43,012 nt of DNA from Chitinophagales bacterium. GTDB lineage: Bacteria > Bacteroidota > Bacteroidia > Chitinophagales > Chitinophagaceae. Location: contig JBBRHK010000001.1 in the NCBI GenBank assembly GCA_038222815.1, positions 1 through 43,012 on the forward strand. Reading direction: 5' to 3'. Positions 1,257-25,555 of this stretch are shown in pieces; the stretch's first letter is position 1; every line of letters begins with the position of its first letter. The notes below the pieces were generated by a model. That model was not told where the DNA came from. It made no database searches and worked only from the letters and a program-made list of their open reading frames with translations. A program made the translations under genes and the position numbers.

Positions 1257-1817
1257 TTACTGCTTCCAACCTAAATCTAGATCGATTAATCCGTGAATGA
1301 TATTATTGATCTCATTCTGTGGATAGCGTGGGTAATAGGCTTCTTCATATACGCTGCTTACTAGGCTACAATTATTAAATTGCATTGGCAATGTTGTAAA
1401 TGGAAGTGTATGATAATAGTAGCTTGTCACATTCACAGTAATACAATATTTTTTATCTGCTTGTAATAAAAATGGCTGAGCCAATACGAAATGATTATAG
1501 CCTAATGTATCTCCAATTGTGAATTGCATTGTGGTGATTAGAGCCTTAGTGTCTGCATCCCAAATACTAACAGGCACCATTCCTCTTGTAGGATTTTTCA
1601 ACCACATACCTGTTATTCTACCTTCTTTGTGTGGGATAAATGCAAAGCCTAGTTCCCAGCCCGGCTCTCTACCCTGTGCGGTCCTAGTAATGGTTTGAAA
1701 AGATCGAAATTGTTTAGAAAAAACCCTTTCCTCTCCAGAATAGGAAACACCATTCGCCAGAAAGTTTCCGCAGCCGGCAGTAATAAAAATCATTATGGTT
1801 ATAACAATAAGTTTCAT
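1257..1817 (-). CDS. Lipoprotein with DUF4082-like beta-sandwich domain
   Basis: Lipobox ITAG-C after a hydrophobic stretch. ELGFAF...GRITGMW...VSIWD resembles DUF4082. Confidence 0.6.
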   Translation of the reverse strand: MKLIVITIMIFITAGCGNFLANGVSYSGEERVFSKQFRSFQTITRTAQGREPGWELGFAFIPHKEGRITGMWLKNPTRGMVPVSIWDADTKALITTMQFTIGDTLGYNHFVLAQPFLLQADKKYCITVNVTSYYYHTLPFTTLPMQFNNCSLVSSVYEEAYYPRYPQNEINNIIHGLIDLDLGWKQ

Positions 1818-1818
1818 C

Positions 1819-2538
1819 CTATTTCTTTTCTTTAAAACTCCTAGCGTCTAATTTAATATCTACTTTTTCTATTTTGGTAATTTCAATTTTAAGTTGTGTA
1901 TCTTCTGTACCTGCGCATAAGAATGTCTCATTATCTATTTGATAAAATCCTACTCCAAAACTTCCTAAGTACCTTTTGAATTTTCCTTTCCCCGGCAGTT
2001 TTTTACCATACAAGAAGCGAATTAATTTTTTCTGCATCCCCGAGGTATTTACAAAGTATGGAGAGCCTGTTACTTGATTACTAAGAAATTTTCGAGCTGT
2101 AGCTACGCTAGTTTCTACTGGCTGTATTGGCAAGTCATTATAATTCATTATCAAATTCGATGGCATTTTCTCTACCTGCTTTCCTTCCTTCTTATTGTTA
2201 GAATATACAAAGCTTTGCTTAGATAAGCTTTCTACATAAAATTTAAAATCCTCACCATTTGCGTTAGGTGTACTGCTTACTACTGCTGACTTATCAATGC
2301 CGATATAACCATCTTTAGAATTTATAAAGACAACAACAGGATCCGTTTTAAATACTATTTTTTTATTAGTGGTTTTCACCGTAAGCTTTAAGTCAAAAGA
2401 TAAGTTAGAAGCAGGCTCAATGGTTTTTGCTTGTAGCTTGCTAAAGATTCCTGCTGTTCCCAACAGGCTATCAATTTTATTTTGTGCATAGGAAAAATTT
2501 GAAGCAAATATTAGACCTGCTAGAAAATATTTTTTCAT
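1819..2538 (-). CDS. Exported hypothetical protein
   Basis: Start moved to ATG 2538 (MKKYFLAGLIFASNFSYAQ), a Sec signal peptide ending in A-Q. Its stop is 1 nt from the next gene. Confidence 0.75.
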   Translation of the reverse strand: MKKYFLAGLIFASNFSYAQNKIDSLLGTAGIFSKLQAKTIEPASNLSFDLKLTVKTTNKKIVFKTDPVVVFINSKDGYIGIDKSAVVSSTPNANGEDFKFYVESLSKQSFVYSNNKKEGKQVEKMPSNLIMNYNDLPIQPVETSVATARKFLSNQVTGSPYFVNTSGMQKKLIRFLYGKKLPGKGKFKRYLGSFGVGFYQIDNETFLCAGTEDTQLKIEITKIEKVDIKLDARSFKEKK

Positions 2539-2634
2539 TTCTTTATTTTTATTTTTTTCTTCGTTAGATCGACTACGCCACAACGATCATCTCTATTTTT
2601 TTAAAATAACTAGTAGATATTTCGTCGATGCTTT

Positions 2635-4011
2635 TTATTTTGCTGAAACAATAATTTCTACTCTTCTATTTTTCTTTCTATTCTCTTCATTATTATTAGG
2701 CACAACCGGATTTGATTTCCCCTTGCCAAGTGCTATAAATCGGAACCCAGATTTTGATTTTAATTGTTCTTTTAAAATAGTAGCTACAGCTTCGGCTCTT
2801 TGTTGGGAAAGTTTTTGGTTGGTCTCATCACTACCTATATCATCTGTAAAACCATCAATATTTATCTGCGCAGCAGACATCTCACTTAGCTGCACGGCGA
2901 GATTTTTTACCGCCGATATACCTTCGGCTTTCAATGTGGCCTTACCAAGATCAAAAAGCACTTCTGCTGCTAGGCTCAATTTCATAGCAGCGCCTATAGC
3001 AGCTACTGCATCTATATCGGCACCTGCCACTGTAGATTGGGTATTCAAATCTGTAAGTCGAACGTAGTAGAAATAATCTCCCGGTTTCGCCACTTTACTT
3101 ATGTCCACAGCAGCCGTACCGCCGCTAATCTTACCTACATTAATCCAATCAATTCCATTTTTAGAAATATCAAGATTGGTAGGTTCTATTTCTCCCGCTT
3201 CAAAAACATAAAGATCGGGACCATTTACATCAACTAATGCATTGTTTACAAATTTTATAGTTAGCGTTCCATTTGTACCGAGGCTATAAATGCCTTTGTT
3301 ATCTTGTAATTTTTTCATCAAAACATAATCTGGAGTGCCTATACAATTTTCTTTAGGAAATTGAATATTGCCCGCTTTGTAGTTTGCTTCTACCACTTCA
3401 TCTATAAAACTGGCATCACCGAGAGGTAAGTACACCAAGCCATTTTCTGAGATATAGGTTTTGCCAACCGCAGCACCAAAGTTGATAGAAGGATTAGCTT
3501 TATTAAAGTCTGCTTTTAATTTATCTGCTTCTTTGATAATAAGCTCTGCTTTGTTCTGTGTACTTTGATAACTCACACAAAACCCAACAAGAGCCATAGA
3601 CTTGATTTTTGAAAATTGTTGAATATCTGCTCGCACATCTATGCCTTTCATTTTTACCACAAATGCTTGCGCATCTTCGCTAGTTCTAAATGCTTCTGGC
3701 ACTTCAGGATAGTTTTTTACTTTCTCCTTTTCGGCAGCCGTAAGAAAATTATAGGCATTGTCTATTGTTGTTTTGCTCGTACTATATTTTGAACTAGTAT
3801 ATCGAGTAGCTGGCGTACTAGTTGTTTTTGTAGATTTATTTGCTTGTCTCTCCTGTTTAATACTATCTGCCATAGCGGTTATTCGCTTAAGGTATTCTTC
3901 AGCAGCTTCGTTTTTACCAGCAGACTTCGTGTCTTTCTGTGCCCATACTTGTTGATTGCTTAGGATTAGCAATAGACATAGAATAGGTTTAATAAAATAA
4001 TTGTTATTCAT
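2635..4011 (-). CDS. OmpA-family peptidoglycan-binding protein with N-terminal helical region and central beta-sandwich domain
   Basis: Signal peptide; C-terminal OmpA_C motifs VLFD...GFTDDIG...NQKLSQQRAEAV...NRRVEI; central DLYVFE...YVRLTD...GADIDAV domain. Confidence 0.9.
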   Translation of the reverse strand: MNNNYFIKPILCLLLILSNQQVWAQKDTKSAGKNEAAEEYLKRITAMADSIKQERQANKSTKTTSTPATRYTSSKYSTSKTTIDNAYNFLTAAEKEKVKNYPEVPEAFRTSEDAQAFVVKMKGIDVRADIQQFSKIKSMALVGFCVSYQSTQNKAELIIKEADKLKADFNKANPSINFGAAVGKTYISENGLVYLPLGDASFIDEVVEANYKAGNIQFPKENCIGTPDYVLMKKLQDNKGIYSLGTNGTLTIKFVNNALVDVNGPDLYVFEAGEIEPTNLDISKNGIDWINVGKISGGTAAVDISKVAKPGDYFYYVRLTDLNTQSTVAGADIDAVAAIGAAMKLSLAAEVLFDLGKATLKAEGISAVKNLAVQLSEMSAAQINIDGFTDDIGSDETNQKLSQQRAEAVATILKEQLKSKSGFRFIALGKGKSNPVVPNNNEENRKKNRRVEIIVSAK

Positions 4012-4013
4012 CG

Positions 4014-4709
4014 TTAATCGTTTCTTTTATACCGAGCCTTCATCATATCAAAATATAAAAATCCATACCGCTGGTACCAACCAGGCTGGGCGTAGGTGGT
4101 TTCACATTGGTTAAACTCCATCAAGCCATCCTTTAGCAGCTTAATAAATTCCAGATACTTTCTGTCATAGGTTTCTTTCAATGCAGAAAAAGACTTGTTT
4201 ATTTTTGCTCTCTCTACTTGCCATGCTGCGCCACTCATTGCATGAAAGCCGCTATAGCTATCACCAAATGCAATAGCACTTGTAGTAAAGTTTTTTGTAT
4301 TTGCATATATACATTTTATACGCTCAAGGGCCATTCGGGCGCCATTCATTTTTTCTACCGCTTTGGTATAATCCTCTTCGCACTCCCCATTGCCACTGCA
4401 GGCCGCTGTCATAAGAACATCATTGCTCATACTAAATTCTGGTGCGCAGTCATCTTCGCTTAATGCATTGGAGTTGTTATATAAATCCACAGCATTATCT
4501 GCTAGCCCTCCTAAGTCTTCAAAGTGCTCATCAATAATAGCATTGAGTGCCCCACGAACAGTTGTTGGATCATCTTCTTCTCTAATAGCGCCCCATTCTG
4601 CAGCAGCAGCTTGTGCTACACCTTCTGCCCTTTCTTGTAATGTGGGGTATGTCTGCGCTTTGCTTCCTAAGCTAGCGAGAACAAAAGCTAATACAATGAG
4701 TTTTTTCAT
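4014..4709 (-). CDS. Exported alpha-helical Cys-containing hypothetical protein
   Basis: Signal peptide MKKLIVLAFVLASLGSKAQ; five Cys; tightly coupled to neighbours (1-2 nt gaps). Confidence 0.8.
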   Translation of the reverse strand: MKKLIVLAFVLASLGSKAQTYPTLQERAEGVAQAAAAEWGAIREEDDPTTVRGALNAIIDEHFEDLGGLADNAVDLYNNSNALSEDDCAPEFSMSNDVLMTAACSGNGECEEDYTKAVEKMNGARMALERIKCIYANTKNFTTSAIAFGDSYSGFHAMSGAAWQVERAKINKSFSALKETYDRKYLEFIKLLKDGLMEFNQCETTYAQPGWYQRYGFLYFDMMKARYKRND

Positions 4710-4710
4710 T

Positions 4711-5223
4711 TTAAGATTTTTTAGTTTTTGATTTATCTACCTTTTTTACCTCTTGTTTTTTAAATGGTACTCCAATGTCTTTTCCTCGCAATGGCTTGCC
4801 CACCCAAGTAAATAATTGGTACGGCTCTCTTGATGTGGTGACTACTAAAATACCAAAGCTACCTTCCGTTTTAAATCGAGTACTCCACTTTCCAGCTGAC
4901 TTTAAGTTACCGGTTTGGTCTGCCGTTTTCCACGTGTTTTTGCACAAAATAATTTGAATATTATTTTTCTTACCAGTAGCACTTAGGAAAATCGGTTGGT
5001 ACACACTCAGGCCACTTACAAAAAAATAAGTGCTGTCTTTTTTTGGAGTAACGGTAGTAAAGTTTACCTGTCCTTTCCAAGTAGAATCACCCTTCTCGCC
5101 GTTATATGATATCAGTCGGAGTTGAATAGGTTTTATCTTCTTGTCTAATGTATAAGGTTGCGCTATAGCAATTCCTATAAAATGTACTAGCATAGCTAGC
5201 GTGAGTGTGAATTTTATTTTCAT
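4711..5223 (-). CDS. Exported beta-rich hypothetical protein, first gene of a five-gene operon
   Basis: Signal peptide ending AIA-Q; Lys-rich tail; promoter-like element upstream. Confidence 0.8.
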   Translation of the reverse strand: MKIKFTLTLAMLVHFIGIAIAQPYTLDKKIKPIQLRLISYNGEKGDSTWKGQVNFTTVTPKKDSTYFFVSGLSVYQPIFLSATGKKNNIQIILCKNTWKTADQTGNLKSAGKWSTRFKTEGSFGILVVTTSREPYQLFTWVGKPLRGKDIGVPFKKQEVKKVDKSKTKKS

Positions 5224-5329
5224 CTATTTTTTTTAAGTTTTATTGTACTATTATTTTTTAAGTATTAGCTTCTCAATATCAATCTTCATTTCATCGTTGA
5301 TTCATTTATCTCTTCCCGCTTCTGACATA

Positions 5330-5376
5330 CAAATTTCCTTGATTGTCAAAAAGTGTACAATCCCCAAAATGGGTGA
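5330..5376 (-). promoter_or_regulatory. Degenerate -7 element (GAAATTTG) plus putative NarL-family operator
   Basis: Plus strand caaatttc at 5330-5337 and aatccccaaaatgggtga at 5359-5376. Spacing is the same as at 8917 and 9667. Confidence 0.6.
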
Positions 5377-5418
5377 ATAATAGCATCAATCAAGAATCTA
5401 GGACGACTAGGTGCTTTG

Positions 5419-6990
5419 CTAATCAGTAGTTACAAAATTTCCCTGTGCTATAAGTGTTGCTTTTGCTGTGGCACCTGCACCCGTAGGCGGTGCTGGTGGT
5501 GTATTGCCATTTAAGAAAATTGTTTTTCCTGAACCCGGAGTGATACTAAATAGTTTAACAAGTAAGTTATTTACCATTGTGGTATTAAGTTGGCAATTAT
5601 TAACCACAAAGTTATTGCCATAGCTAGTGAGCGCAGGAATTGAAATAGAAGACAAAGATGTGTTACTAACACTTGAGAAACCCGTTGCTGTGGTAAGTGC
5701 AGGAAATGAAATACTATTTAAATCGATGCAACTTCCAATAGTTATGGTAGTAGCTGTTTGTAGCATTGGGTACACAAGCGTTGTTATCTTGGTGGCATTT
5801 ACAATAATCCGAGTGGCTGTTGTAAGTAATGGTAGAGACAAGCCTGTCAATAAACTATTGGTCTGAACTCTAATTTCTTTGGCATTGATTAGGCCAGCTA
5901 GGCTAATGCTGATTAATGCGCTATTGCTTGTGATATCTAGGTTACTATTTGCACTTGAGAGGCTTCCAAAGGTTAAGTTTGATAAGCTATTGCAATTACT
6001 AACTGTAAGACCAAAATCCCCTATGGTTGTTAGAGCGCTGGCATTTATGGTAGTCAACAGAGGTAAATTTGACATAGTGATACTCGCAGCTGTAGTTAGT
6101 AAAGGAAGATTAATGCTTGATAATACAGCGTTTCCGTTAATATTTAAACTGCCGCCAGCAGTAAGTAATGGAAAACTTAAGCTATTGAGCGAATTGTTTC
6201 CCGTAAGTGTAAGCCCACCAGAGGAGGTAAGGGAAGGAAAATTAATGCTTGAAACTCCGTTACTGTTGATAGTTAGACTGCCAATATTGCTCAAGGCTGG
6301 AAAACTCATTGTGGTTAATGCTGGGTTTGTACTAATTATGTTCCCAGAGTTAGAAGAAAAATTTGTGAGACTAGATAGATTTACTGTACTTAATAGATTG
6401 TTATTGGTAAGCGTTAGATATCCAAAGCTTGTTACCGATTGAAGATTAACACTTCCTAGTTGCGGATTTTGTGATATTAAAATTCCATCTTGTGTGCTAG
6501 TTAATGTATTTGCAACGATACTTGTTAAAGCGCTATTATTTTCAACTTTTAACTCAATGATTTCTTCAAGCCCAGAAAGATTTACCGATGTTAGCGCAGT
6601 TGTATTTTTAATAGAAATATATTGAGTATTGGTCCCCACTTCTTTTGCAAGCTGCTGCTCAGCTTGCGCATTAGTAATACCATCTTTTAGAAAAATAAAC
6701 GTTTTTCCCTGAGGCTTGGTAGCAGGTTGTAACCACGCCCAGCCGCCGTTATTAAAATAATATAATCCAGAACTATCTACACCGATTTGGAAGACTACTA
6801 ACCCATCTGCTGGAGCTACAATTGCATTTCGCTCTATCTTACTCATCCGCGGTGGTAAAAAACCTTTGTTAGATGCAGAGACATCTAGCATAGCACTTGG
6901 GTTGGGTGATGTGGTACCAATCCCAATACTTTGTGCCCTCAACCCGTACACGAAACTTGTAAATAGTAATGCCAATAGTATAACTCTCAT
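5419..6990 (-). CDS. Exported leucine-rich beta-solenoid (receptor L-domain-like) protein with Bacteroidota GIGTxxP...LDV...KG.L.PR N-terminal module
   Basis: Start moved to ATG 6990 (MRVILLALLF...AQ). About 22-aa repeats of the form LxSIxLPxLTxxxxLxIxxNxx. Confidence 0.8.
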   Translation of the reverse strand: MRVILLALLFTSFVYGLRAQSIGIGTTSPNPSAMLDVSASNKGFLPPRMSKIERNAIVAPADGLVVFQIGVDSSGLYYFNNGGWAWLQPATKPQGKTFIFLKDGITNAQAEQQLAKEVGTNTQYISIKNTTALTSVNLSGLEEIIELKVENNSALTSIVANTLTSTQDGILISQNPQLGSVNLQSVTSFGYLTLTNNNLLSTVNLSSLTNFSSNSGNIISTNPALTTMSFPALSNIGSLTINSNGVSSINFPSLTSSGGLTLTGNNSLNSLSFPLLTAGGSLNINGNAVLSSINLPLLTTAASITMSNLPLLTTINASALTTIGDFGLTVSNCNSLSNLTFGSLSSANSNLDITSNSALISISLAGLINAKEIRVQTNSLLTGLSLPLLTTATRIIVNATKITTLVYPMLQTATTITIGSCIDLNSISFPALTTATGFSSVSNTSLSSISIPALTSYGNNFVVNNCQLNTTMVNNLLVKLFSITPGSGKTIFLNGNTPPAPPTGAGATAKATLIAQGNFVTTD

Positions 6991-7006
6991 AGTCTTTCTT
7001 CTTTTA

Positions 7007-8236
7007 CTAATCATTAAAATAAACCCAGATCGGATTGAATTTGATTTTGTCTATTCGAGTATCATCATTACAATCATCATCGGTACTTACATCGTCACCC
7101 ATTGTATCACCTACGAGTTCATAATAATCTATAATTTCGGAAGTGTATTTGCTGTCCGCATAAAAAGAATTTCTATTCATACTAGATTCAAAGTAACTGT
7201 AAGCCGCTTTAAGGCTTACGAAATCTCGAATTGATTTCCCTGCTGGAGCTTGATACACTTTTTGATTCCAAATACCATCGGCTTTAGTGCCATCCCCTCC
7301 CTGTTCTTCTGCTACCATTGTTACTTTAGCCCACACTTCAGTATTATTATTAACTAGCGATAGCTCAACTGAAACTGTAATACCCATCTTATGATTGAGC
7401 TCTGTAACTCTATTAAAAATATCACGTTGTGTACCAGTAGCGAATTCCCTATCGCCTCTTATCAAGTTCTTAGGGCACACTCTTCTAAAATCACTTAAAA
7501 TTATTTTCTTTCCGCTTGTTGCAGGTTCAATATTAAGAGCATAATCTTTAGGTAGTAGGTTGTATCTTGGTGTAAGCCCCACATTTGGTAAGTCAGAATA
7601 ACTAGATCTGTCTGCCATATAACTTGTACCACCATCTGCATTACTCCACCTTGCAAATACTCCGAAAACAGAGTTTCTTCCTACAAATAATTTAGCACCC
7701 CCTATTGGTGATTCTTCTACAGATTGTATTCGCCAATGTTGATTCGCATCAGTACCGTTTCCCAAAAGTGGCGCTAATACCAGTTCTTCTGTTCCTGCTC
7801 TCTGAAAAATTTTTGATGTTTTAGTGAGATACTTACCAGACTTTTTGTTTTTTATAGTGAAATAAACTTCCCTAGGATCCAACCCTTTGGTAAAATCTAA
7901 ATTGCCACTACCTCCTTGAATTCGGCTTGTAGGTGTACTAAGTTCTACTATCCATACTTGTTTAGTGTCTGCAACATTAAAATTATCAAAAGTTAGAGAA
8001 TCAGATTTTTGATTTTGTAATACCGTACTAGCTTGGATTATTGACTTGGCATTATCAAATTTTGAAAGGCCATTTGTAGCCTTTTTTCCAGTAGGTTTTG
8101 TTTCATCTGGTGAAAAAAAACTTAGAGCCTTTCCATTTTTCAATTTAAAATAGTACTCGTGGTAGGTTGTGAGGAACTGAGCGTTTGCACTTAGCGTAGC
8201 TAGAGAAAGCGCCAACAACCATATTTTCTTTATCAT
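7007..8236 (-). CDS. Exported protein with ricin-B/beta-trefoil-like region and an uncharacterised C-terminal domain
   Basis: Signal peptide; QVW and YFTIKNKKSGKYL...NQHW (QxW) motifs; C-terminal CP...RGDREF domain. Confidence 0.65.
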   Translation of the reverse strand: MIKKIWLLALSLATLSANAQFLTTYHEYYFKLKNGKALSFFSPDETKPTGKKATNGLSKFDNAKSIIQASTVLQNQKSDSLTFDNFNVADTKQVWIVELSTPTSRIQGGSGNLDFTKGLDPREVYFTIKNKKSGKYLTKTSKIFQRAGTEELVLAPLLGNGTDANQHWRIQSVEESPIGGAKLFVGRNSVFGVFARWSNADGGTSYMADRSSYSDLPNVGLTPRYNLLPKDYALNIEPATSGKKIILSDFRRVCPKNLIRGDREFATGTQRDIFNRVTELNHKMGITVSVELSLVNNNTEVWAKVTMVAEEQGGDGTKADGIWNQKVYQAPAGKSIRDFVSLKAAYSYFESSMNRNSFYADSKYTSEIIDYYELVGDTMGDDVSTDDDCNDDTRIDKIKFNPIWVYFND

Positions 8237-8292
8237 AAAATATATATTTATTGTAACACATTAATATTTCATCAGCTTAAGTCTTTTATACT

Positions 8293-8895
8293 TTATAGTT
8301 TTTCTACTTTCACATTATCAATATAAAATTCTGCACCATCTGCTGCTGGATGCGTAGAGCTCCATTTCGAATAAATTGTGAGATTATCAATTGGTTTATC
8401 GTATGTAAAACTTAAGTATTCCCATTTGCAAGTAGTAGTAGAGGCGACTAATTTTTGTAGCGAATTGTCGCCACTATTTATAACTCCCAGTGTCATTGCG
8501 CCACGCACTACATACACCCAGCAGCTTACTTTTACCCCGTTATTTTTAGGCAATGGATTCTGAGCAATACCAGAGTGGCCTATTGTACTTATAATGTGCA
8601 TTACATTTCCCTCTACGCCACTTTTACCAATTGTGGGTATAAGCCAACAATTATTTTTTACATTTACTATCTCAGTAATCATACAGGAGTTATCTGTAGC
8701 GTTATTTATCCAGGTGGCCCAGTTTAGTGCTGGGGTAACATCCGCCCAATCTGAAGTGCCGGTCTTGTGACAATACCCTTTAGGATTACCCACATTTTTT
8801 GCTAGCGTATCAAACGTGCCATTTTTTATTAGATTTTGCGCTAAGCAAAATTGATAAAATAGAGATGCTAAACCTAGAGTGATAATTTTTTTCAT
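8293..8895 (-). CDS. Exported carbohydrate-binding-module-like (CBM4/9-like jelly roll) protein
   Basis: Signal peptide; begins NLIKNGTFD and ends FYIDNVKV, with SCWVYV and KWEYLSFT strands in between. Confidence 0.65.
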   Translation of the reverse strand: MKKIITLGLASLFYQFCLAQNLIKNGTFDTLAKNVGNPKGYCHKTGTSDWADVTPALNWATWINNATDNSCMITEIVNVKNNCWLIPTIGKSGVEGNVMHIISTIGHSGIAQNPLPKNNGVKVSCWVYVVRGAMTLGVINSGDNSLQKLVASTTTCKWEYLSFTYDKPIDNLTIYSKWSSTHPAADGAEFYIDNVKVEKL

Positions 8896-8916
8896 CCTTC
8901 GCTTTCTTAATTATTA

Positions 8917-8963
8917 CAAAGATTAGCTTTCGCAAAACGTCAGGCAATACCATAAATGGGTTA
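8917..8963 (-). promoter_or_regulatory. Degenerate -7 element (AATCTTTG) plus putative NarL-family operator
   Basis: Plus strand caaagatt at 8917-8924 and aataccataaatgggtta at 8946-8963. Confidence 0.6.
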
Positions 8964-9032
8964 AAAATTGTATTGGGAATCTTACTAAATGAAACGAGGT
9001 TGAGCCCAGAAAATAAGCGTGTTAGCTTTTTT

Positions 9033-9662
9033 CTATTTCCCCCCAGAAAATTTATACACCGCGGCCGTTGCATTATTTACCTGCAACTTTCTATATATTT
9101 TTTTTATATGGCTTCTCACTGTTTCTACAGAGATAAAGATTTCTGCAGCTATCATTTTATAACTATAGCCTTTCACGATATACTCCAAGATTTCTCTTTC
9201 TCTACCAGATAAGGAATCTAATTCCTGGCTAGAGGCTCTATTATTTTGTGGCACAAATCTTAAAACTTTTTTTGCAATACTACTAGTCATAGGTGCGCCA
9301 CCATCTAGCACATCTTTTATGGCGGCAGGTATTTGATCAAAGTTTTTCTTTAAAAGGTATCCGTTTGCTCCTGCACATATCGCATTGAAGATATTATCAT
9401 CATCATCAAAAACGGTAAACATAATTACAGGTAAATTTTCATCTACCATTCTTATTTGCTTTACTGCATCTACGCCATTACTGTTAGGCATATCTATGTC
9501 CATCAATACTACTTGTGGCTTTAGAATGGCTATATCATCTTTTACGCCGGCTGCATCTGGCATTGCAGCTATTACATCAAAATCTTTGTTGAATAAAAGA
9601 AGGGCCTGTATACTCTTTCTCAAATTATCATTATCCTCATATATTAAAACGCCTATTGCCAT
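9033..9662 (-). CDS. NarL/LuxR-family DNA-binding response regulator
   Basis: REC domain (YEDN, LMDIDMP, GANGYLLK) plus LuxR HTH (LSGREREIL...YKMIA...TVRSHIKKIYRKL). Confidence 0.97.
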   Translation of the reverse strand: MAIGVLIYEDNDNLRKSIQALLLFNKDFDVIAAMPDAAGVKDDIAILKPQVVLMDIDMPNSNGVDAVKQIRMVDENLPVIMFTVFDDDDNIFNAICAGANGYLLKKNFDQIPAAIKDVLDGGAPMTSSIAKKVLRFVPQNNRASSQELDSLSGREREILEYIVKGYSYKMIAAEIFISVETVRSHIKKIYRKLQVNNATAAVYKFSGGK

Positions 9663-9666
9663 ACCA

Positions 9667-9713
9667 CAAATGTAGAAAGTAAAACAATGCAGATGAATAC
9701 CACTTTTAGGGGA
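9667..9713 (-). promoter_or_regulatory. Consensus -7 element (TACATTTG) plus putative autoregulatory operator
   Basis: Plus strand caaatgta at 9667-9674 fits TAnnTTTG. aataccacttttagggga at 9696-9713 overlaps the kinase stop codon. Confidence 0.6.
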
Positions 9714-12700
9714 TGGGCACGGTTAGTTTCAACTCGGTTCCTTCTACACTATTCTTAATGGATAGTGTGCCAGCAAGCGAGAGGGCTCTTTCCTGCATAG
9801 ATTTGATGCCCGTGCCTGTTCCTGTTCCTTTCCAATGACCATTATCCGCAACGGTAAGTTCTATGTTTTTCATTTGCTTAGTAATGGTAACTTTTACAGT
9901 ATTAGCATTTGCATGTTTAGCAATATTATTAGTGGCTTCTTTGAAGATTAGTAATATTTCTTTTCGATAATCAATAGGTAATTTTTCTTCCTGCAGGGCA
10001 GAAGCTACAATGATCTCTATCCCGATGTTTAGCGGTTCCAATGTTTGCGCTGCATACTCTCTCATTCTGGAAGCTAGGCTTCCTATCAATTCATTTTCGC
10101 TTCGCAGGCTCCATACAATATCACTCATAGATTGCTGTATGTTTTTACTCTGTATAGAAATTTGCTGTAACATCTCGAGAGCCTGCTCAGGATGCTGTTG
10201 CATCGCTTGCTGAAATACATCACTTAAAATGCTTATACTGGTAAGCGTGCTTCCAATTTCGTCATGCAAGTTGGCAGCAATTCTATTACGAAGCTGGTAG
10301 CGGGCCTTTATCCTGTTTATTCTTTGTTGTATTAGCCAATAAGCAAGTCCCAAAACGCATAATATCCATATGGCTGTAAACCACCAAGTTTTATAAAAAG
10401 GGGGGCTAATTATAATGACCAATTTCGATGCTGTTTTCATCCATTCGCCTTGACTATCTGCTGCTTTTACATACAGGGTATAAGTGCCCGGTTTGAGGTT
10501 AGAATAAGACGCAATGTTTTCTTTAGACACAGTCCAGGTTTTATCAAACCCTTCCAACATCCAACTATACATATTATCAGATGAATTTGTATAACTTAAT
10601 AAAGCAAACTCGATACTTATCATATTTTCTAAATGCCGGAGCCGAACAGTGTTGTGGTTAGAAAAATCTATCAGTTTGTTTTTGTAAGGCATATTAAAGA
10701 TAGAAAGCCCTGAGAGCCTGAGCTTATTTTCACTGTTAGATAACCTAGTAATGTTTGTATTGCAATATCGTATAGCATTATGCTGTCCTATATACAGGTT
10801 TCTGCTATAAGGCGAGAAGCAAAGAGGTGCATCTACGGTATTCTCAATCCCATAGGAAAAATGATTATAGTTTACGAAAGAGTTTTCGTTAGTCTTATAG
10901 TAAGAAAGACCAAGTGCTGTGCTGCACCATATATTTCCACTTTCATCTTTTTGTAGATAATTAATGTAATTACTATTTATGCCATCTGCCTTCGTAAGAT
11001 ATTTTAAAGTGGGATTAGATTTTGTAGCAGAAAAAATAGCAATGCCAGATCCCCAGTTGCTAACTAATAAATTTCCATTATCGTCACAAACTATTTCTCT
11101 AAGATCTACACCAGATTCCGCAACTGATATATCTTGTTTCTCATTGTAAATAATTTTTAGTTTGTCCGATGAAGGAATATAATTTCCTATACTAGCCATT
11201 GGTTTACTGGTATTGTCTGCTGTGAACCAGATGCTTCCATCTTTAAACTCACAAAGACCTTGAATATTTATTGACAAGCCTTCTTTTTTTAATCCGTCAT
11301 TTACAACCTTCACTTCCTCAATGGTAAATGTAATAGCAGTTTTTCTGTACAACCCGTTGTAAGTTCCTATCCATAGATTGCCATCCTTATCTTCAAGGAA
11401 ATAGCTAGCCCATTTGCCCTGATCATAGAAATATTGTTTTTCCCCTAACACTATTTTATCTTTTTCTATATCGTAAGCTATAAGACCGTATTGATTGGTG
11501 GCTATGTATAATATATTCTTAGTGTCAATGTATATTTTAAAAACTCCAGTTGGAGGATTGAGATATTTTGCAACTTTCTTAGGCAGTTCTAAAATTTGTT
11601 TTCTTGTTACATTGTATATGTATCCTCCCTTGTAGGGAATCTCTATCCAAAGTATTTCTTCTCTATTACTAGTTGGTCTTTGTAAAGCCATATCGCCGAC
11701 TGGCAATAAGGTTACACCATTGGCAATGCTTGAGAGATCAAGTGTATTAAAAATTTGTTTATTTGCATCTAATTTGTGTAGGCCTGTTTCTGACCCAATC
11801 CATAATGTGTTGTATTTGTCCTGATACAACCCGAAGCTGTTGCCTTTTATACCGCCCTTTGTATTCGTTTCATTTGTGGCATAAGAATAAAACTTATGGG
11901 TAATCTTATTGAAAGACGTAAAACCAAAACCGGCGGTAGAAACCCATAAGTTATTATTATCGCCTTGGTCTTGTACTACAGCGCCTACCAGATTGCCTTC
12001 TTTCTTTGGGTCTTTATAAAAATGTTGATTTAGCGTTCCTGTTACTGTGTTGTATTCAATTAAGCCGCCCATCCAAGTACCCATCCAAAGCACGCTATTC
12101 CCATCCAAAAAGCAACTGGAAATATCAACGAGACTTCTTCCAAATTTCTTTGTGAGCATATCTCCAATGTCAATCCATGTGGTAATGCCGGTGCTTTTAT
12201 TGAATTTACATACTCTATTGGAAGCGGCGACCCAAAGCTCATTGTTAGGTCCTGCTGTGATGCTTCCAAACCTAGTTTCCGTCATTAAAGAATCAGCACT
12301 TTTTGCTAGATTTAATTGTAGGCTTCCATTTTTACTATAATATAATCCCTTCTTAGTTGATACCCACATTTCATCAGCTAATTCATCATAGTAAAAACTA
12401 GTTGGATAAATCTTCTGCTTTAATGAGTCATTAATTCTATGTTTTAAATGAGAGAACTTTTCCAGTTTCGGATCAAATACTTCCAGATTTTCTCCGCTTA
12501 TAATCCACAGTCGACCTCTTTTATCTGACTGTATTGCTTTACAATAATTAGAAATTAAGGAATTGGGCTCTCCTGGAATGTGCTGATAAAATTTAAAGCG
12601 CTTGCCGTCGTAACGGGCAAAGCCATCATTACTACTTACCCAAATAAATCCATCTGGGCTTGAGGTTATATACATTGCCTCCTTTGAATTAAACCCTGCA

Positions 12701-12792
12701 TCCAATCCATAGTGATCGAACACAATCTGTTTTTGCTGACAATGAAGACCGCTATAAATAAAAATAAATAATATGCTGAGAGCAATTTTCAA
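9706..12792 (-). CDS. Sensor histidine kinase with periplasmic beta-propeller, Y_Y_Y domain, TM helix, HisKA_3 and HATPase
   Basis: Repeated DxxGxLWIGT propeller blades; YSWMLEGFD...YSNLKPGTYTL; PPFYKTWWF TM; LHDEIGSTL; KEATNNIAKHA. TTG start. Confidence 0.95.
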   Translation of the reverse strand: MKIALSILFIFIYSGLHCQQKQIVFDHYGLDAGFNSKEAMYITSSPDGFIWVSSNDGFARYDGKRFKFYQHIPGEPNSLISNYCKAIQSDKRGRLWIISGENLEVFDPKLEKFSHLKHRINDSLKQKIYPTSFYYDELADEMWVSTKKGLYYSKNGSLQLNLAKSADSLMTETRFGSITAGPNNELWVAASNRVCKFNKSTGITTWIDIGDMLTKKFGRSLVDISSCFLDGNSVLWMGTWMGGLIEYNTVTGTLNQHFYKDPKKEGNLVGAVVQDQGDNNNLWVSTAGFGFTSFNKITHKFYSYATNETNTKGGIKGNSFGLYQDKYNTLWIGSETGLHKLDANKQIFNTLDLSSIANGVTLLPVGDMALQRPTSNREEILWIEIPYKGGYIYNVTRKQILELPKKVAKYLNPPTGVFKIYIDTKNILYIATNQYGLIAYDIEKDKIVLGEKQYFYDQGKWASYFLEDKDGNLWIGTYNGLYRKTAITFTIEEVKVVNDGLKKEGLSINIQGLCEFKDGSIWFTADNTSKPMASIGNYIPSSDKLKIIYNEKQDISVAESGVDLREIVCDDNGNLLVSNWGSGIAIFSATKSNPTLKYLTKADGINSNYINYLQKDESGNIWCSTALGLSYYKTNENSFVNYNHFSYGIENTVDAPLCFSPYSRNLYIGQHNAIRYCNTNITRLSNSENKLRLSGLSIFNMPYKNKLIDFSNHNTVRLRHLENMISIEFALLSYTNSSDNMYSWMLEGFDKTWTVSKENIASYSNLKPGTYTLYVKAADSQGEWMKTASKLVIIISPPFYKTWWFTAIWILCVLGLAYWLIQQRINRIKARYQLRNRIAANLHDEIGSTLTSISILSDVFQQAMQQHPEQALEMLQQISIQSKNIQQSMSDIVWSLRSENELIGSLASRMREYAAQTLEPLNIGIEIIVASALQEEKLPIDYRKEILLIFKEATNNIAKHANANTVKVTITKQMKNIELTVADNGHWKGTGTGTGIKSMQERALSLAGTLSIKNSVEGTELKLTVPIP

Positions 12793-12929: not shown

Positions 12930-13361
12930 CTATTTACTACTCATCCTTATTACCGGCACTATCATTTCCTCCAAGCTCACTCCGCCATGCTGAAAAGTGT
13001 TTCTATAATAATTTACAAAGTGATTATAATTATTAGGGTAGCAAAGAAAGGTATCACCTTTGGCAAAAATAAAGCTACTATTTACATTGGGCACTGGTAA
13101 GCCTGCCTCTTTGGGGTCTTTGAAGGCAAGCACATCTCTGTCTTCATAATTTAGATTTCTGCCGTGCTTATATCTAAGATTTGCCGTGGTGGCTTTATCA
13201 CCTATTACTTTTACGGGTGTTTTTACCCTAGTGCTACCATGGTCGGTAGCAATAATCATATTTATATTTTTATCAGCAATCTTCTTAATCGCTTGGTGCA
13301 GCGGGCTATGTTCAAACCAACTTGCCGCAATACTTCTATAACTTGTTTCGTCGCCGGCAAG
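12930..13361 (-). repeat. Displaced copy of the porX 3' end (direct repeat of 15462-15893)
   Basis: 432-bp ungapped alignment with about 25 mismatches by manual count, ending at the shared stop codon. Confidence 0.97.
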
Positions 13362-13445
13362 CCAGTTCAATATTTTCTCTTCGTTATTCTCCGCCTCCAC
13401 CCTCACACAATTTTCTTTTTTATAAAAATATTCCGCTTCGATCAT
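12930..13445 (-). pseudogene. porX: Truncated porX fragment (C-terminal half of the PglZ domain) fused to 28 unrelated N-terminal codons
   Basis: From LAGDETSY to RMSSK it matches PorX with 4 substitutions. It lacks the receiver domain and the catalytic Thr region. Confidence 0.8.
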
Positions 13446-13580: not shown

Positions 13581-14717
13581 TTATTCTCCCGTTACTTTTT
13601 TTAAGCTGACCTTTATTTTTTGCATTTCTTCAGACAGCTGTATGTTTTTTTTATTAAGTTCGATGATATATAATGTAAGCTCTTCTACTTTTTCCAATAG
13701 TTTGCGATTCATCTCGCCTACTTCAATGCCATTTTCTGCGATTACGTCAGCCGCAGAGGGAACATTAGGTAAGTGTTTATTAATGGAGATTGATTTTTCA
13801 AGTTCATCCAACGGCATAAGCTTGTAGTTTTTATGAAAAACATAATCAGGCCAGCTGCCGACCAATTGAACTTTAATTTCTTCGCAAATAGCTTTTCCTG
13901 CCACATTCAGCAGGTATCCGGTAGCAAGATTGTTGGCGGTTCCAATACTTACCCTACCATCTGTATTAATAGTCATTCTGTTTCCAGAAGAAGCAAACTT
14001 TATATTGGCGGTGGAACTACCTAAAACGATAGAGTTTGCCCCATTATACCATAGATATCCTTGATATCCGTCTGTGTTGTCGTAAATTGATAAATAAGGA
14101 CTGGATCCCTGCATTCTGATTGTTTCGGATGTGGTAGCGTTTACATGTAATCGTGCAGCAGGTACCGTAATCCCGGTACCAATACCCACATTTCCATTTT
14201 GTGCAAAATAGTGCTGCTGCGTGAATGATGTTCCATCCGTTGTAGTCTCCATTCTAAAATCGGCGCCACCATTTGTTGTAGGAAACTTCCATTGGTTGCT
14301 GCCATCATATCCGAACCTAAGAGATCCTGAGCTTGATTGTACAAATAAATCACCCCCTGTTACGTGCAGCTTGTAATTAGGGCTGGTTGTGCCAATACCA
14401 ACGTTACCTAAATTATTAATGGTAAGCTTTGGCACTGCCTGTATTCCTAGGTGCAGCTTGCCGGTAGTACCAGCACCGGTGCTAAAATCTACATCTTCGG
14501 GAGCTCCTGAATAAGAACCCCAGTAGCCACGGTAAACATCATTTTCAAAAATGCTCACGTACATAGGAGAAGCACCATTAAACTGCGCTACCAAAGGCGA
14601 AGTAAGTGACTTTACATCTAATTTTGCAGCTGGAGTAGTAGTACCAATACCCACATTTTGTGAAAATAAAAGCAAGGTGAAACACGTTGCCATTACAGAC
14701 AAGAAAAATTTTTTCAT
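13581..14717 (-). CDS. Exported fibre-like protein with GNVGIGT repeats and a C-terminal WPDYVF...KVEELTLY chaperone-like/coiled-coil domain
   Basis: Signal peptide; four NVGIGT/RVSIGT units; WPDYVF...HLPNVPSA...LLEKVEELTLYII tail typical of Bacteroidota tail-fibre-like proteins. Confidence 0.85.
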   Translation of the reverse strand: MKKFFLSVMATCFTLLLFSQNVGIGTTTPAAKLDVKSLTSPLVAQFNGASPMYVSIFENDVYRGYWGSYSGAPEDVDFSTGAGTTGKLHLGIQAVPKLTINNLGNVGIGTTSPNYKLHVTGGDLFVQSSSGSLRFGYDGSNQWKFPTTNGGADFRMETTTDGTSFTQQHYFAQNGNVGIGTGITVPAARLHVNATTSETIRMQGSSPYLSIYDNTDGYQGYLWYNGANSIVLGSSTANIKFASSGNRMTINTDGRVSIGTANNLATGYLLNVAGKAICEEIKVQLVGSWPDYVFHKNYKLMPLDELEKSISINKHLPNVPSAADVIAENGIEVGEMNRKLLEKVEELTLYIIELNKKNIQLSEEMQKIKVSLKKVTGE

Positions 14718-15461: not shown

Positions 15462-17018
15462 CTACTTACTACTCATCCTTATTACCGGCACTATCATTTC
15501 CTCCAAGCTCACTCCGCCATGTTGAAAAGTATTTCTATAATAATTTACAAAGTGATTATAATTATTAGGGTAGCAAAGAAAGGTATCACCTTTGGCAAAA
15601 ATAAAGCTACTATTTACATTGGGCACTGGTAAGCCTGCCTCTTTGGGGTCTTTGAAGGCAAGCACATCACGCTCTTCATAATTCAGATTTCTGCCGTGCT
15701 TGTATCTAAGATTTGCGGTAGTGGCTTTATCGCCTATTACTTTTACAGGCGTTTTTACCCTAGTGCTACCATGATCGGTAGCAATAATCATATTTATATT
15801 TTTATCGGCAACCTTCTTCATTGCTTGGTGCAGTGGACTATGTTCAAACCAGCTTGCAGTAATACTTCTATAACTTGTTTCATCGCCGGCGAGTTCTTTC
15901 AACACTTCCATCTCTGTTCTTGCATGGCTCAGCATATCTACAAAATTGTACACAATTACATTGAGATCATTTTGTAAAAGATTGTGCATATTGTCCACCA
16001 TTTTTTCTCCATCGTGGTGGTTGGTAATTTTGGTATAAGAAATTTTTAGATCTCCGTGGCCCATTCTTTTAAGGTTGGCTCTCAAGAATGTTTCTTCATG
16101 CAGGTTTTTCCCACCTTCTTCATCATCATTCTTCCACTCTTCTTTAAATTGTTTTTCTATGTCGATGGGTAAAAGTCCAGCAAAAATGGCATTCCTAGCA
16201 TATTGCGTAGCCGTAGGAAGTATAGCGTAAAAAGTTTCTTCTTCGTGTATGCGGAAAGATTCTGCTACGATAGGTTGTATGGTCTTCCATTGATCGAAAC
16301 GTAAATTATCAATCAAGACAAAAAATAAAGGCTTCCCTTTTTCTAAATGAGGAACTACCTTAAACTTTAAAAGATTATTACTCATTATAGGTGCGTCGGT
16401 TGACTTCGGCGAAACCCAAGAAGCATAATTCCTGCTGATGAATTTAAAAAACTCGGTATTGGCTTCTTGCTTCTGTGCTTGAAAAACATCTTGCATCTCA
16501 GGGCTATCACTCTTCTTCATTTCAAGTTCCCAATACACTATTTTTTTATACAATTCCATCCAAGCAGTATAATCCAAATCATCATTGAGTGCCATAAATA
16601 AAGTACGGAACTGCTGCTGATAAGAGGACGTTGTTTTCTCTGCTACCAATCTTTTATTGTCTATTATTTTCTTTAGCGATAGCAGTACCTGGTTAGGATT
16701 CACCGGCTTTATAAGATAGTCGCTGATTTGACCGCCGATAGCTTCATCCATAATATTCTCCGCTTCATTCTTTGTAATGAGCACCACAGGAATATTGGTA
16801 TTGTGTTCTTTTATTTGTTGCAGCGTTTGTAGCCCAGTAAGACCGGGCATACTTTCATCCATCAAGACTACATCTACAATATTTTCTTTTACATACTCTA
16901 TTGCATCAAAGCCATTGGAGATAGTTTTTACTTCGTAGCCCTTATTTTCCAAGAACATTATTTGCGAGTTTAATGTATCAATCTCATCATCTACCCAAAG
17001 GATTTTTGCAGCGCTCAT
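15462..17018 (-). CDS. porX: PorX response regulator (REC plus PglZ/alkaline-phosphatase domain)
   Basis: ILWVDDEID, IDNLRFDQW, ILPTATQYARNAIF, NFVDMLSH, TDHG, FQHGGVSLEEM. Start placed at ATG 17018. Confidence 0.95.
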   Translation of the reverse strand: MSAAKILWVDDEIDTLNSQIMFLENKGYEVKTISNGFDAIEYVKENIVDVVLMDESMPGLTGLQTLQQIKEHNTNIPVVLITKNEAENIMDEAIGGQISDYLIKPVNPNQVLLSLKKIIDNKRLVAEKTTSSYQQQFRTLFMALNDDLDYTAWMELYKKIVYWELEMKKSDSPEMQDVFQAQKQEANTEFFKFISRNYASWVSPKSTDAPIMSNNLLKFKVVPHLEKGKPLFFVLIDNLRFDQWKTIQPIVAESFRIHEEETFYAILPTATQYARNAIFAGLLPIDIEKQFKEEWKNDDEEGGKNLHEETFLRANLKRMGHGDLKISYTKITNHHDGEKMVDNMHNLLQNDLNVIVYNFVDMLSHARTEMEVLKELAGDETSYRSITASWFEHSPLHQAMKKVADKNINMIIATDHGSTRVKTPVKVIGDKATTANLRYKHGRNLNYEERDVLAFKDPKEAGLPVPNVNSSFIFAKGDTFLCYPNNYNHFVNYYRNTFQHGGVSLEEMIVPVIRMSSK

Positions 17019-17090
17019 TTTTTCTATTTTAATCAAATATAAGAATGCTTACAAATTAATTTTTTTATAGTGGCCTTTGAGTGTTATACC

Positions 17091-22148: not shown

Positions 22149-22876
22149 TGATGAAAGAAAAATTAAGCGCCGTAATTATAGATGATGAAGAAGACGGCAG
22201 GAAAATAATGAGCTTATTATTAGAGCGGTATTGTCCTACAATACAGGTAGCTGCTGTAATTGGAGATGGTGTGGAGGCTTTTGAATATTTACAACAGCAT
22301 AATCCAGATATAGTATTCTTAGATATCGAAATGCCTAGGCTTAGTGGCTTTGACTTATTAAAACAACTTGGAAATTTTACGTTCAAAGTAATTTTCGTTA
22401 CCGCTTATGACAGGTATATGTTGCACGCTATAAAAGTAGCAGCCTTTGATTATTTAATAAAACCAGTATATAAAGATGAGCTAGTGAGTAGTGTAGAAAG
22501 GTTACAGAGCTTGGATGTACAAGAACAAGAATACAGCTTAAATACTGTAGGCAATAAACTGATTGTACCCATAGGAAATGGCTATGAGTTTTTAGACATA
22601 GAGGAAATTATAAGGTGCGAAAGCAGCGACAACTATTGTTTCATATTTATGAATGATGGCAGAAAACTTCATATCAGTAAAACTTTAAAATACATTGAGG
22701 AATTACTTCCCACAGAGCAGTTTCTTAGAATACATAGTAAGTACTTGATTAAAATAAGTGCTATCAAAAAGTATATACGATCCGATGGCGGATTTTTTGA
22801 GCTTATAGATAACAGCACACATCCCATCTCCAGAAATAAAAAAGATGAAGTCTTAAAAAAACTTGGGCTGAGGTAA
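22148..22876 (+). CDS. LytTR-family response regulator
   Basis: IIDDE, FLDIEMP, VTAYD, YLIKP; LytTR FLRIHSKYLI. Overlaps the kinase stop codon. Confidence 0.96.
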   Translation: MMKEKLSAVIIDDEEDGRKIMSLLLERYCPTIQVAAVIGDGVEAFEYLQQHNPDIVFLDIEMPRLSGFDLLKQLGNFTFKVIFVTAYDRYMLHAIKVAAFDYLIKPVYKDELVSSVERLQSLDVQEQEYSLNTVGNKLIVPIGNGYEFLDIEEIIRCESSDNYCFIFMNDGRKLHISKTLKYIEELLPTEQFLRIHSKYLIKISAIKKYIRSDGGFFELIDNSTHPISRNKKDEVLKKLGLR

Positions 22877-22988
22877 ATATTACATATTTAATTAGTGTTA
22901 TACTTTTTCAAATAGGCAGTTTACTCATTTCGTAAAGCAGGTACAGCGAAAGCTAAATACTTTCAATGTATTAAACAATCATTGCTTT

Positions 22989-25523: not shown

Positions 25524-25555
25524 TAAACAACCGCAGAAAAATTAAAAACAAAAAT

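What the first reader, a model, noticed from the sequence alone, without database searches (positions are those of the whole stretch)
5330..9713. One operator at identical spacing in three promoters defines a two-component regulon
Seen: aatccccaaaatgggtga (5359), aataccataaatgggtta (8946) and aataccacttttagggga (9696) share AAT(A/C)CC-N5-T(G/A)GG-N2-A. Each starts exactly 29 nt from the CAAA of a minus-strand -7-like element (5330, 8917, 9667). The regulator's own -7 is consensus, while the two target -7 elements are degenerate at the TA, as expected for activator-dependent promoters. Established: NarL-family dimers bind short inverted repeats near the upstream promoter element. Inference: the kinase/regulator pair autoregulates and switches on two operons, making 1257-12792 one signal-induced system of eight exported proteins.
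Basis: partly seen in the sequence, partly recalled or inferred. Interest (0 to 1): 0.75.

Follow-up and report, generated by a model that had tools for sequence, protein, structure and literature searches.

The report
NarL-type operator on Bacteroidota promoters
The same 16-base palindrome sits at one fixed distance upstream of three promoter-like sites here and in related genomes, and it is very likely where the neighbouring response regulator binds to switch on its own gene and eight predicted exported proteins; this is a familiar kind of bacterial switch, with the twist that the regulator's own site is written into the stop codon of its kinase gene.

Summary
Observation confirmed and far above chance. 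The element is a 16-bp 7-2-7 dyad (TMCCMY-N4-RKGGKA) at predicted −51..−36, centre −43.5. That is where E. coli NarL binds at yeaR; the 8946 box matches that site 13/16. Models trained only on the three boxes, or only on relatives, find four more sites in this genome at the same spacing. Relatives conserve both promoter types. Regulator promoters have T−12 (33/33) and often look leaderless. Target promoters keep A−11 (24/24), mostly lose T−12 (19/24) and carry TTG at −35..−33 (22/24). Where the regulator's recognition helix changes, its own box and the downstream box change together, pointing to the local regulator.

Corrections: the kinase gene has no box, so only the regulator is autoregulated. 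Only T−12 is degenerate. The regulon extends beyond the window. In 40 of 42 relatives with a box, the kinase stop codon is box positions 6–8. Binding, start sites, sign of control and signal are untested, and a paralogue with a near-identical helix could share sites. The scan noted this kind of operator before in other Bacteroidota genomes. New member of a known kind.

The parts
5361..5376 (-). 16-bp dyad operator TCACCC-ATTT-TGGGGA, predicted -51..-36 of the promoter for the 4711-1257 block; weakest target box
   Evidence: 10.5 bits; 23.4 bits with promoter model
5358..5360 (-). TTG abutting the box, predicted -35..-33 (the -33 element)
   Evidence: conserved in 22 of 24 relatives' target promoters; background 28 of 699
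5330..5337 (-). -7-like element GAAATTTG (T-12 lost, A-11 kept); predicted +1 at 5325
   Evidence: numbering from PMC6847099
8948..8963 (-). 16-bp dyad operator TAACCC-ATTT-ATGGTA; 13/16 identical to the NarL site of E. coli yeaR
   Evidence: positional orthologue in 29 of 48 relatives
8945..8947 (-). TTG, predicted -35..-33
8917..8924 (-). -7-like element AATCTTTG (T-12 lost); predicted +1 at 8912, 17-nt leader
9698..9713 (-). 16-bp dyad operator TCCCCT-AAAA-GTGGTA of the regulator gene; positions 1-8 are the kinase's last codons, positions 6-8 its TAA stop (9706-9708)
9667..9674 (-). consensus -7 element TACATTTG; predicted +1 at 9662, the A of the regulator's ATG (predicted leaderless mRNA)
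9033..9662 (-). NarL/FixJ-family response regulator, 209 aa (receiver D55/T83/K105; GerE HTH; K169, R183, S184, K187 align to NarL K174, K188, V189, K192)
9706..12792 (-). sensor histidine kinase, 1028 aa (signal-like N-terminus, Reg_prop propeller, Y_Y_Y, HisKA_3, HATPase); no box upstream
8293..8895 (-). target, 200 aa, signal-like N-terminus; weak CBM_4_9 / BT4411-family likeness (below cut-offs); homologues in 6 relatives' loci
7007..8236 (-). target, 409 aa, signal-like N-terminus; weak ricin-type lectin hit; only its C-terminal domain recurs in relatives' loci
5419..6990 (-). target, 523 aa (531 from the upstream ATG at 7014), signal-like N-terminus, leucine-rich repeats by inspection (weak LRR hits); only its first ~90 residues recur in relatives' loci
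4711..5223 (-). target, 170 aa, signal-like N-terminus, no family
4014..4709 (-). target, 231 aa, signal-like N-terminus, predicted all-helical, conserved Cys; no family or fold match
2635..4011 (-). target, 458 aa, signal-like N-terminus, C-terminal OmpA peptidoglycan-binding domain
1819..2538 (-). target, 239 aa from the likely ATG (longest ORF to 2583), signal-like N-terminus, no family
1257..1817 (-). target, 186 aa, lipoprotein-like N-terminus (Cys16), DUF4082

Best explanation
The three boxes are copies of one conserved 16-bp 7-2-7 dyad, and they are very likely the operator of the neighbouring NarL-family response regulator (9033-9662), which would bind as a phosphorylated dimer centred at about -43.5 and likely activate transcription by the housekeeping sigma factor. 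Shown: the dyad, its fixed spacing, its conservation, and the two promoter types. Inferred steps: (1) the propeller kinase, made without box control, senses an unknown envelope or external ligand and phosphorylates Asp55. (2) The dimer binds the boxes just upstream of the -33 TTG and recruits RNA polymerase as NarL does at yeaR, probably through the alpha-CTD and Lys169. (3) The target promoters lack T-12, so they would be weak alone and depend on the activator. (4) The regulator's own promoter has a consensus -7, which would give basal, leaderless expression boosted by positive feedback. (5) The output is a set of predicted exported surface proteins (lectin-like, repeat, OmpA-domain, lipoprotein; one protease at a distal site), most plausibly a surface-remodelling or adhesion programme.
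For: Out-of-sample sites at the exact spacing. A de novo motif in relatives' regulator promoters, 45 of 50 kept. In 814 kb of relatives' flanks, 15 of 96 non-training hits have TTTG at gap 27 and no other gap has more than 3. Census: 29 of 48 orthologue loci have a box just downstream of the regulator, and 24 of 29 have TTT[G/A] at gap 27; A-11 24/24, non-T at -12 19/24, TTG 22/24; regulator promoters T-12 33/33 and TTG 1/33. Motif-free symmetry peaks only at gaps 26/27 and again at 27 in an independent metagenome set. In Arg-Phe-helix regulators both the own box and the downstream box become C(T/G)ACAT-N4-ATGTAG, with TTG and gap 27 kept (4 of 7 loci). The centre (-43.5) and sequence (13/16) match NarL at yeaR. 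The NarL K174 equivalent, needed for activation there, is Lys in 103 of 104 relatives. Where the operon is split, a second box appears before the split-off part (window, L065, L032). Three of four distal targets have homologues in loci of regulator relatives, against 37 of 433 signal-peptide ORFs in a control on the 19 closest loci.
Against: No binding, start-site or expression data. Paralogue C261 has a nearly identical recognition helix (ETVRSHIKNI against ETVRSHIKKI) and its own box; C189 is also close. The 5359 box and the distal boxes start TCAC, which is uncommon among the closest orthologues' target boxes. The helix-dyad match follows clades, and the independent-pairs test was not significant. 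NarL R178 is not conserved. Nineteen of 48 orthologue loci have no box of this class within 260 nt downstream of the regulator. A wide distal regulon is not general: five genomes with close orthologues have only 1-2 pattern matches each, and 40 relatives give 19 matches against 11 in the control. The sign of control at the regulator's own promoter is not shown.
Confidence: 0.8

Rival explanations
1. The boxes are NarL-type operators, but the 5359 box and the distal boxes are read mainly, or also, by a paralogous regulator with the same helix (C261, perhaps C189), so the window is not one single-input system.
For: The C261 helix differs by one residue and has a TCACCC box in its own locus; C189 has TCACAC-N4-TGGTGA beside it. 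The 5359 box and all four distal boxes begin TCAC, unlike most close orthologues' target boxes.
Against: Arg-Ser-helix regulators elsewhere use TCACC boxes (L013, L242), and orthologue loci L043, L049, L050 and L072 have TCACCC boxes. Genes behind the 5359 box follow a box of this class next to the regulator in six relatives. Paralogues C225 and C202 use a different dyad class. C261 has no close orthologue in the sets searched, so its preference could not be read.
Confidence: 0.15
2. The regulator activates the target promoters but represses, or does not affect, its own consensus promoter (a variant compatible with the main reading).
For: The own promoter has a consensus -7 and should work without an activator. 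Its spacing is looser (gap 26 in 14 and 27 in 18 of 33) and it lacks the TTG.
Against: The site lies upstream of -35 in the same slot as at the target promoters, not over the start site.
Confidence: 0.2
3. The box plus the degenerate -7 is a promoter for an alternative (ECF) sigma factor, or the site of an unrelated transcription factor.
For: Non-T -12 elements are at background level among ordinary upstream regions. Bacteroidota have alternative-sigma motifs that resemble the -7 box (PMC9723704 passages).
Against: Dyad symmetry is kept while the sequence changes. The dyad class tracks the adjacent regulator's helix in both boxes of a locus. A-11 and TTTG stay at the housekeeping positions, and the same box serves consensus promoters.
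Confidence: 0.04
4. Chance, or a by-product of the kinase's conserved Pro-Ile-Pro-stop codons.
Against: The non-coding right half is as conserved and mirrors the left. All target boxes are non-coding. Some relatives keep a box clear of the kinase stop. Out-of-sample statistics.
Confidence: 0.01

Closest known systems
E. coli NarX/NarL at the yeaR promoter (PMC10853779; abstract and passages seen)
   Same: HisKA_3 kinase plus NarL/FixJ regulator; one 16-bp 7-2-7 site centred at -43.5, just upstream of the upstream promoter element; site TAACCAATAAATGGTA matches the 8946 box 13/16; K174 and K192 equivalents kept.
   Different: Promoter is the Bacteroidota -33/-7 type, not -35/-10. The sensor is a periplasmic propeller/Y_Y_Y kinase, not a nitrate sensor. 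K188/V189 become R/S and R178 is not kept. Scores are far below the NarL equivalog cut-off (119 against 250 bits). Targets are exported proteins. The own operator overlaps the kinase stop codon.
VraR/LiaR-like NarL-family envelope regulators (best PDB sequence matches 5hev, 7ve6, 4gvp)
   Same: Same receiver plus LuxR HTH architecture; HisKA_3 partner kinase.
   Different: Different recognition helix; no comparison of binding sites was made here; function in this organism untested.
Bacteroidota housekeeping promoter -33 TTTG / -7 TAnnTTTG (PMC6847099, PMC9723704, PMC7366714, PMC2483708; passages seen)
   Same: A-11, TTTG at -8..-5, and 4 nt to the predicted start site.
   Different: The papers report T-12 as nearly invariant in strong promoters and the -33 motif as weak or absent genome-wide. 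The target promoters here mostly lack T-12 yet nearly always have TTG at -35..-33. Leaderless mRNAs are reported as about 4-6% of transcripts, whereas 71 of 140 regulators of this family have a -7-like element ending 3-8 nt before the start codon.
Bacteroides hybrid two-component systems (recalled, not from a call)
   Same: Reg_prop/Y_Y_Y sensor domain.
   Different: Here the kinase and regulator are separate, the output is LuxR-type not AraC-type, and no SusC/SusD or glycoside hydrolase family was found among the eight targets.

Membership tests
NarL/FixJ response-regulator family | Receiver domain with phospho-acceptor Asp, Thr and Lys | tested here: met
   PF00072; D55, T83, K105 invariant in 104 of 104 relatives
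NarL/FixJ response-regulator family | C-terminal LuxR/GerE helix-turn-helix | tested here: met
   PF00196 E 6e-18; aligns to NarL 1a04
NarL/FixJ response-regulator family | Cognate HisKA_3 kinase | tested here: met
   Adjacent gene has PF07730 plus HATPase; phosphotransfer itself untested
NarL-type activated promoter (yeaR class) | 7-2-7 inverted repeat | tested here: met
   16-bp dyad by de novo and motif-free tests
NarL-type activated promoter (yeaR class) | Site centred near -43.5, abutting the upstream promoter element | tested here: inconclusive
   Met if the G of TTTG is -5 as in PMC6847099; start sites not mapped in this organism
NarL-type activated promoter (yeaR class) | Alpha-CTD contact residues K174 and R178 | tested here: inconclusive
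   K174 equivalent is Lys in 103 of 104; R178 equivalent not kept; the paper reports K174 as essential and R178 as modest
NarL-type activated promoter (yeaR class) | Phosphorylation-dependent binding and activation | not testable with these tools
   Needs EMSA, footprinting or reporters
NarL/NarP orthologue (nitrate regulon) | Score above the NarL or NarP equivalog cut-off; NarX/NarQ-type sensor | tested here: not met
   119 against 250 and 100 against 343 bits; the kinase matches NarX only in its cytoplasmic part
Bacteroidota housekeeping promoter | TAnnTTTG at -12..-5 | tested here: inconclusive
   Met at 9667; T-12 missing at 5330 and 8917, with A-11 and TTTG kept; no transcript data
Autoregulated two-component operon (kinase and regulator both induced) | Operator upstream of the kinase gene | tested here: not met
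   No box here or in 9 of 9 relatives with a full-length kinase

The most novel reading that the evidence does not exclude
A large Bacteroidota family of propeller-kinase/NarL-type systems shares one promoter blueprint. A 7-2-7 dyad at -43.5, a real -33 TTG and a T-12-less -7 element define an activator-dependent class of housekeeping-sigma promoter. The regulator is made from a leaderless, self-activated mRNA whose operator is often written into the kinase's last codons and stop, so the kinase tail and the regulator helix must change together. The helix residues at NarL positions 188/189/192 act as a readable code (RS/RT/RV: TMCCMY; RF: CTACAT; NS/NT: TCACTA; KK-Q: TTACCC; HS: TCACCA) that keeps paralogues apart and lets their regulons be predicted from sequence.
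Probability: 0.5. Interest if true: 0.6.

Novelty: new member of a known kind. Interest (0 to 1): 0.42.

Why it matters
How activators work at Bacteroidota -33/-7 promoters is little described in the papers I could search. This system gives exact, cheap predictions: start sites, a -43.5 site, the role of T-12 and the -33 TTG, and a helix-to-dyad code. If confirmed, it would show that NarL's yeaR geometry is kept on a divergent sigma factor. It may also explain part of why the -33 motif is faint genome-wide, since here it is strong only at activator-dependent promoters. It would allow regulons of many uncharacterised paralogues to be predicted and would offer orthogonal inducible promoters for this phylum. 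As a kind of system it is ordinary, and the signal and the biological role of the cargo remain unknown.

Tried and rejected
A sigma-70 promoter and terminator scan was at background and uninformative. RNA runs: no RNA holder was listed, so this is no evidence either way. Phylogenetically independent test of helix-dyad covariation: 1-3 supported pairs, not significant (61 of 71 anchored rows used, 10 dropped for weak symmetry or mis-anchoring; FastTree, recognition helix removed). A box upstream of the kinase, before 2538 or before 8236: none. Orthologues of paralogue C261: the best metagenome matches were about 52% identical, and 1 of 150 other genus genomes passed E 1e-62. Function of the 4014-4709 family: 30 homologues, unnamed or 'hypothetical'; helical model, pLDDT 73; no PDB match at E <= 0.001; an Atlas lead to DUF5045 at 0.78 for a homologue, below the bar. 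No Atlas result was obtained for the middle domain of the OmpA protein. A strict pattern fitted to this genome found 5 matches in 5 orthologue genomes. In the metagenome replicate, 9 of 22 anchored regulators (NG/SG helix) show no clear dyad. Literature searches listed no paper describing this operator or a NarL-type site in Chitinophagales; the library lacks most subscription papers. The F. johnsoniae ompA promoter mutagenesis paper (PMC1951883) was not held, so the effect of losing T-12 is inferred. No supplements were read; SI Appendix D5 of PMC9723704, on sigma-A motif variants, may bear on the T-12 claim. Look-ups of earlier findings by sequence and by genome returned nothing.
Full report
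OBSERVATION. On the minus strand each reads box, 25 nt, TTTG. Because the pattern was fitted to these sites, I tested it out of sample. A matrix from the three boxes alone gives 11 further oriented hits at >=16 bits; 4 have TTTG at the same gap (C174, C12, C2, C8), and all other gaps from 10 to 44 collect 1 (P about 1e-6). A model trained only on relatives (45 regulator boxes, 14 target promoters) ranks C12, 8963, C8, C2, 5376 and C174 first, all intergenic: 6 hits at >=20 bits against 0, 0, 0 in three Markov-simulated genomes. The regulator's own promoter scores 15.8.

CONTEXT. The 209-aa gene is a receiver plus GerE/LuxR regulator, and the 1028-aa gene a Reg_prop/Y_Y_Y/HisKA_3 kinase. The nearest named relatives of the regulator (69-83% identical) are labelled Ferruginibacter, Chitinophagaceae, Chitinophagales or Bacteroidota, so a Bacteroidota -33/-7 promoter is the right frame. 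All eight downstream ORFs have signal-like N-termini by a simple heuristic. Family hits are OmpA (2635) and DUF4082 (1257), with sub-threshold ricin-lectin, CBM_4_9 and LRR hints.

WHAT THE ELEMENT IS. A de novo sampler on 50 distinct upstream regions of relatives at >=55% identity found one motif; 45 sites were kept and 5 dropped as unsupported. It is a 16-bp dyad, symmetric consensus TACCATA-AT-TATGGTA. In F. johnsoniae the G of TAnnTTTG is -5 (PMC6847099, passages). That puts the dyad at -51..-36, centre -43.5, with TTG at -35..-33. E. coli NarL activates yeaR from one 7-2-7 site, TAACCAATAAATGGTA, centred at -43.5 just upstream of -35 (PMC10853779, abstract and passages). The window boxes match it 13/16 (8946), 11/16 (9696) and 9/16 (5359). 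The regulator aligns to NarL. The K174 equivalent, which the paper finds essential for activation through the alpha-CTD, is Lys in 103 of 104 relatives; the less important R178 is not kept.

TWO PROMOTER TYPES, CONSERVED. In 814 kb of flanks from 49 loci, with the regulator's own box excluded, 15 of 96 hits at >=10 bits have TTTG at gap 27, and no other gap has more than 3. In a census of 48 orthologue loci, 29 have a box within 260 nt after the regulator, and 24 of these have TTT[G/A] at gap 27. Among those 24, A-11 is present in 24, the -12 base is C in 17, A in 2 and T in 5, and TTG is present in 22. The regulators' own promoters have T-12 in 33 of 33 and TTG in 1 of 33. Genome background: TTG at that place in 28 of 699 NAnnTTTG elements, and only T-12 elements are enriched on the sense strand (398 against 184). 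That such promoters are weak without activator is inferred.

THE REGULATOR'S OWN PROMOTER. The predicted +1 is the A of the ATG. In the family, 71 of 140 regulators have NAnnTTTR ending 3-8 nt before the start codon, 40 of them at 4 nt; shifted controls give 20, 10, 5, 2, 3 and 3. Leaderless mRNAs are reported at 3.7-5.5% in B. thetaiotaomicron and F. psychrophilum (passages). The left half of this box is the kinase's last codons. Among 50 relatives, the kinase stop is at box positions 6-8 in 40, elsewhere in 1, absent in 1, and 8 have no box at >=8 bits. Without any motif, symmetry of >=5 of 6 pairs occurs 32 times at that one offset among 118 loci and at most 5 times at any other offset. The non-coding right half is equally conserved, so this is dual coding, not a coding artefact. 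There is no box before the kinase here or in 9 of 9 relatives with a full-length kinase: only the regulator is under box control.

WHO BINDS. Anchoring on the -7 element alone, dyads peak only at gaps 26 and 27 (19 and 18 of 71), and their sequence follows the recognition helix: RS/RT/RV with TMCCMY, RF with CTACAT, NS/NT with TCACTA, KK-Q with TTACCC, HS with TCACCA. An independent metagenome set repeats the peak at 27 (6 of 22), with KK-Q 6 of 6, HS 2 of 2 and RS 2 of 2 in class; 9 NG/SG rows show no clear dyad. In 4 of 7 RF loci the downstream target box also becomes C(T/G)ACAT-N4-ATGTAG, with TTG and gap 27 kept. This is the best sequence evidence that the adjacent regulator reads both boxes. 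The classes follow clades, however, and the independent-pairs test has too few contrasts to be significant. In this genome, paralogues C225 and C202 belong to the CTA class. C261 has a near-identical helix and its own box, and C189 is close, so cross-talk cannot be excluded, above all for the TCAC-type 5359 and distal boxes. My odds that the window regulator reads each site: 8946 and 9696 about 0.9, 5359 about 0.8, distal sites about 0.65.

IS IT ONE SYSTEM? Homologues of 4711, 4014 and 2635 lie downstream of the regulator orthologue in L031, L032, L035, L045, L065 and L066, behind a box of this class; 8293 has homologues in 6 loci. The genes 7007 and 5419 recur only as single domains and look like inserted cargo. 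Where the run is interrupted, a further box appears (window 5361; L065; L032), which suggests selection to keep these genes under the box. Distal targets are a ricin-lectin/astacin-like protease (C12), a ricin-like protein (C2), a small coiled-coil-like protein (C8) and a repeat protein (C174). The first three have homologues in relatives' regulator loci (7, 10 and 2 loci); in the control, 37 of 433 signal-peptide ORFs hit the 19 closest loci. A large distal regulon is not general: 1-2 matches in each of five orthologue genomes, and 19 against 11 control matches in 40 relatives.

MECHANISM. Most likely (0.8): the kinase phosphorylates the regulator on an unknown envelope or external cue; the dimer binds at -43.5, recruits housekeeping holoenzyme as NarL does at yeaR, switches on the T-12-less target promoters and boosts its own leaderless gene; the output is a set of exported surface proteins. 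Shown: sites, spacing, conservation, promoter types, dual coding, class switching. Inferred: binding, start sites, activation, export, signal, role of the cargo.

NOVELTY. It works like NarL at yeaR and the regulator is a NarL/FixJ-family member, but it is not a NarL orthologue. Searches listed no description of this operator; most subscription papers are not covered. Earlier notes of this scan describe similar operators in other Bacteroidota genomes; they are unchecked and not counted as support. Verdict: real, well supported, a new member of a known kind. The dual-coded operator, the T-12-less/-33-TTG promoter class and the helix code lift it somewhat above routine. Interest 0.42.

Noticed in passing
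window 12930-13445 (-) and 15462-17036 (-): The 171-aa ORF contains a 429-nt, 94%-identical copy of the 3' end of porX (T9SS regulator). The two copies flank the 378-aa gene at 13581-14717: a partial duplication, possibly left by an insertion.
   Followed up: partly
window 19461-26896 (+): A second sensor-plus-cargo cassette: propeller His_kinase and LytTR regulator, followed by an S74-chaperone-domain protein and an OmpA-domain protein. No operator search was made.
   Followed up: no
G000 C225:3550 and C202:4936 upstream regions: Paralogous regulators carry their own dyads, TACCTA-N4-TAGGTA and TCCCTA-N4-TAGTTA, in the same slot with ATG 3-4 nt after TTTG.
   Followed up: yes
G000 C2:31321 (-), locus L157: The boxed promoter lies about 360 nt before the 508-aa gene; an ATG 22 nt after TTTG opens only a short frame. 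Long leader or decayed first gene.
   Followed up: no
G000 C36:5178, C261:521, C189:5380, C293:3796: Weaker boxes of the same design before signal-peptide genes; two sit beside paralogous kinase/regulator pairs, and C293 has gap 26.
   Followed up: partly
L151 (G043:C1:181085-181131) and G024:C33:103847-103893: A near-identical distal box, TGCC(A/G)CACAGAGGGTA, with TTG and the same spacing in two genomes; L163, L164 and G022 share another. Possibly operators of other family members.
   Followed up: no
window 4014-4709 (-): Conserved helical exported protein family with near-invariant cysteines; weak Atlas likeness to DUF5045 (0.78, below the bar).
   Followed up: partly
L081: A record titled 'uncultured Citrobacter' carries a Bacteroidota-type promoter and an RF-class regulator; probably mis-binned or mislabelled.
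   Followed up: no
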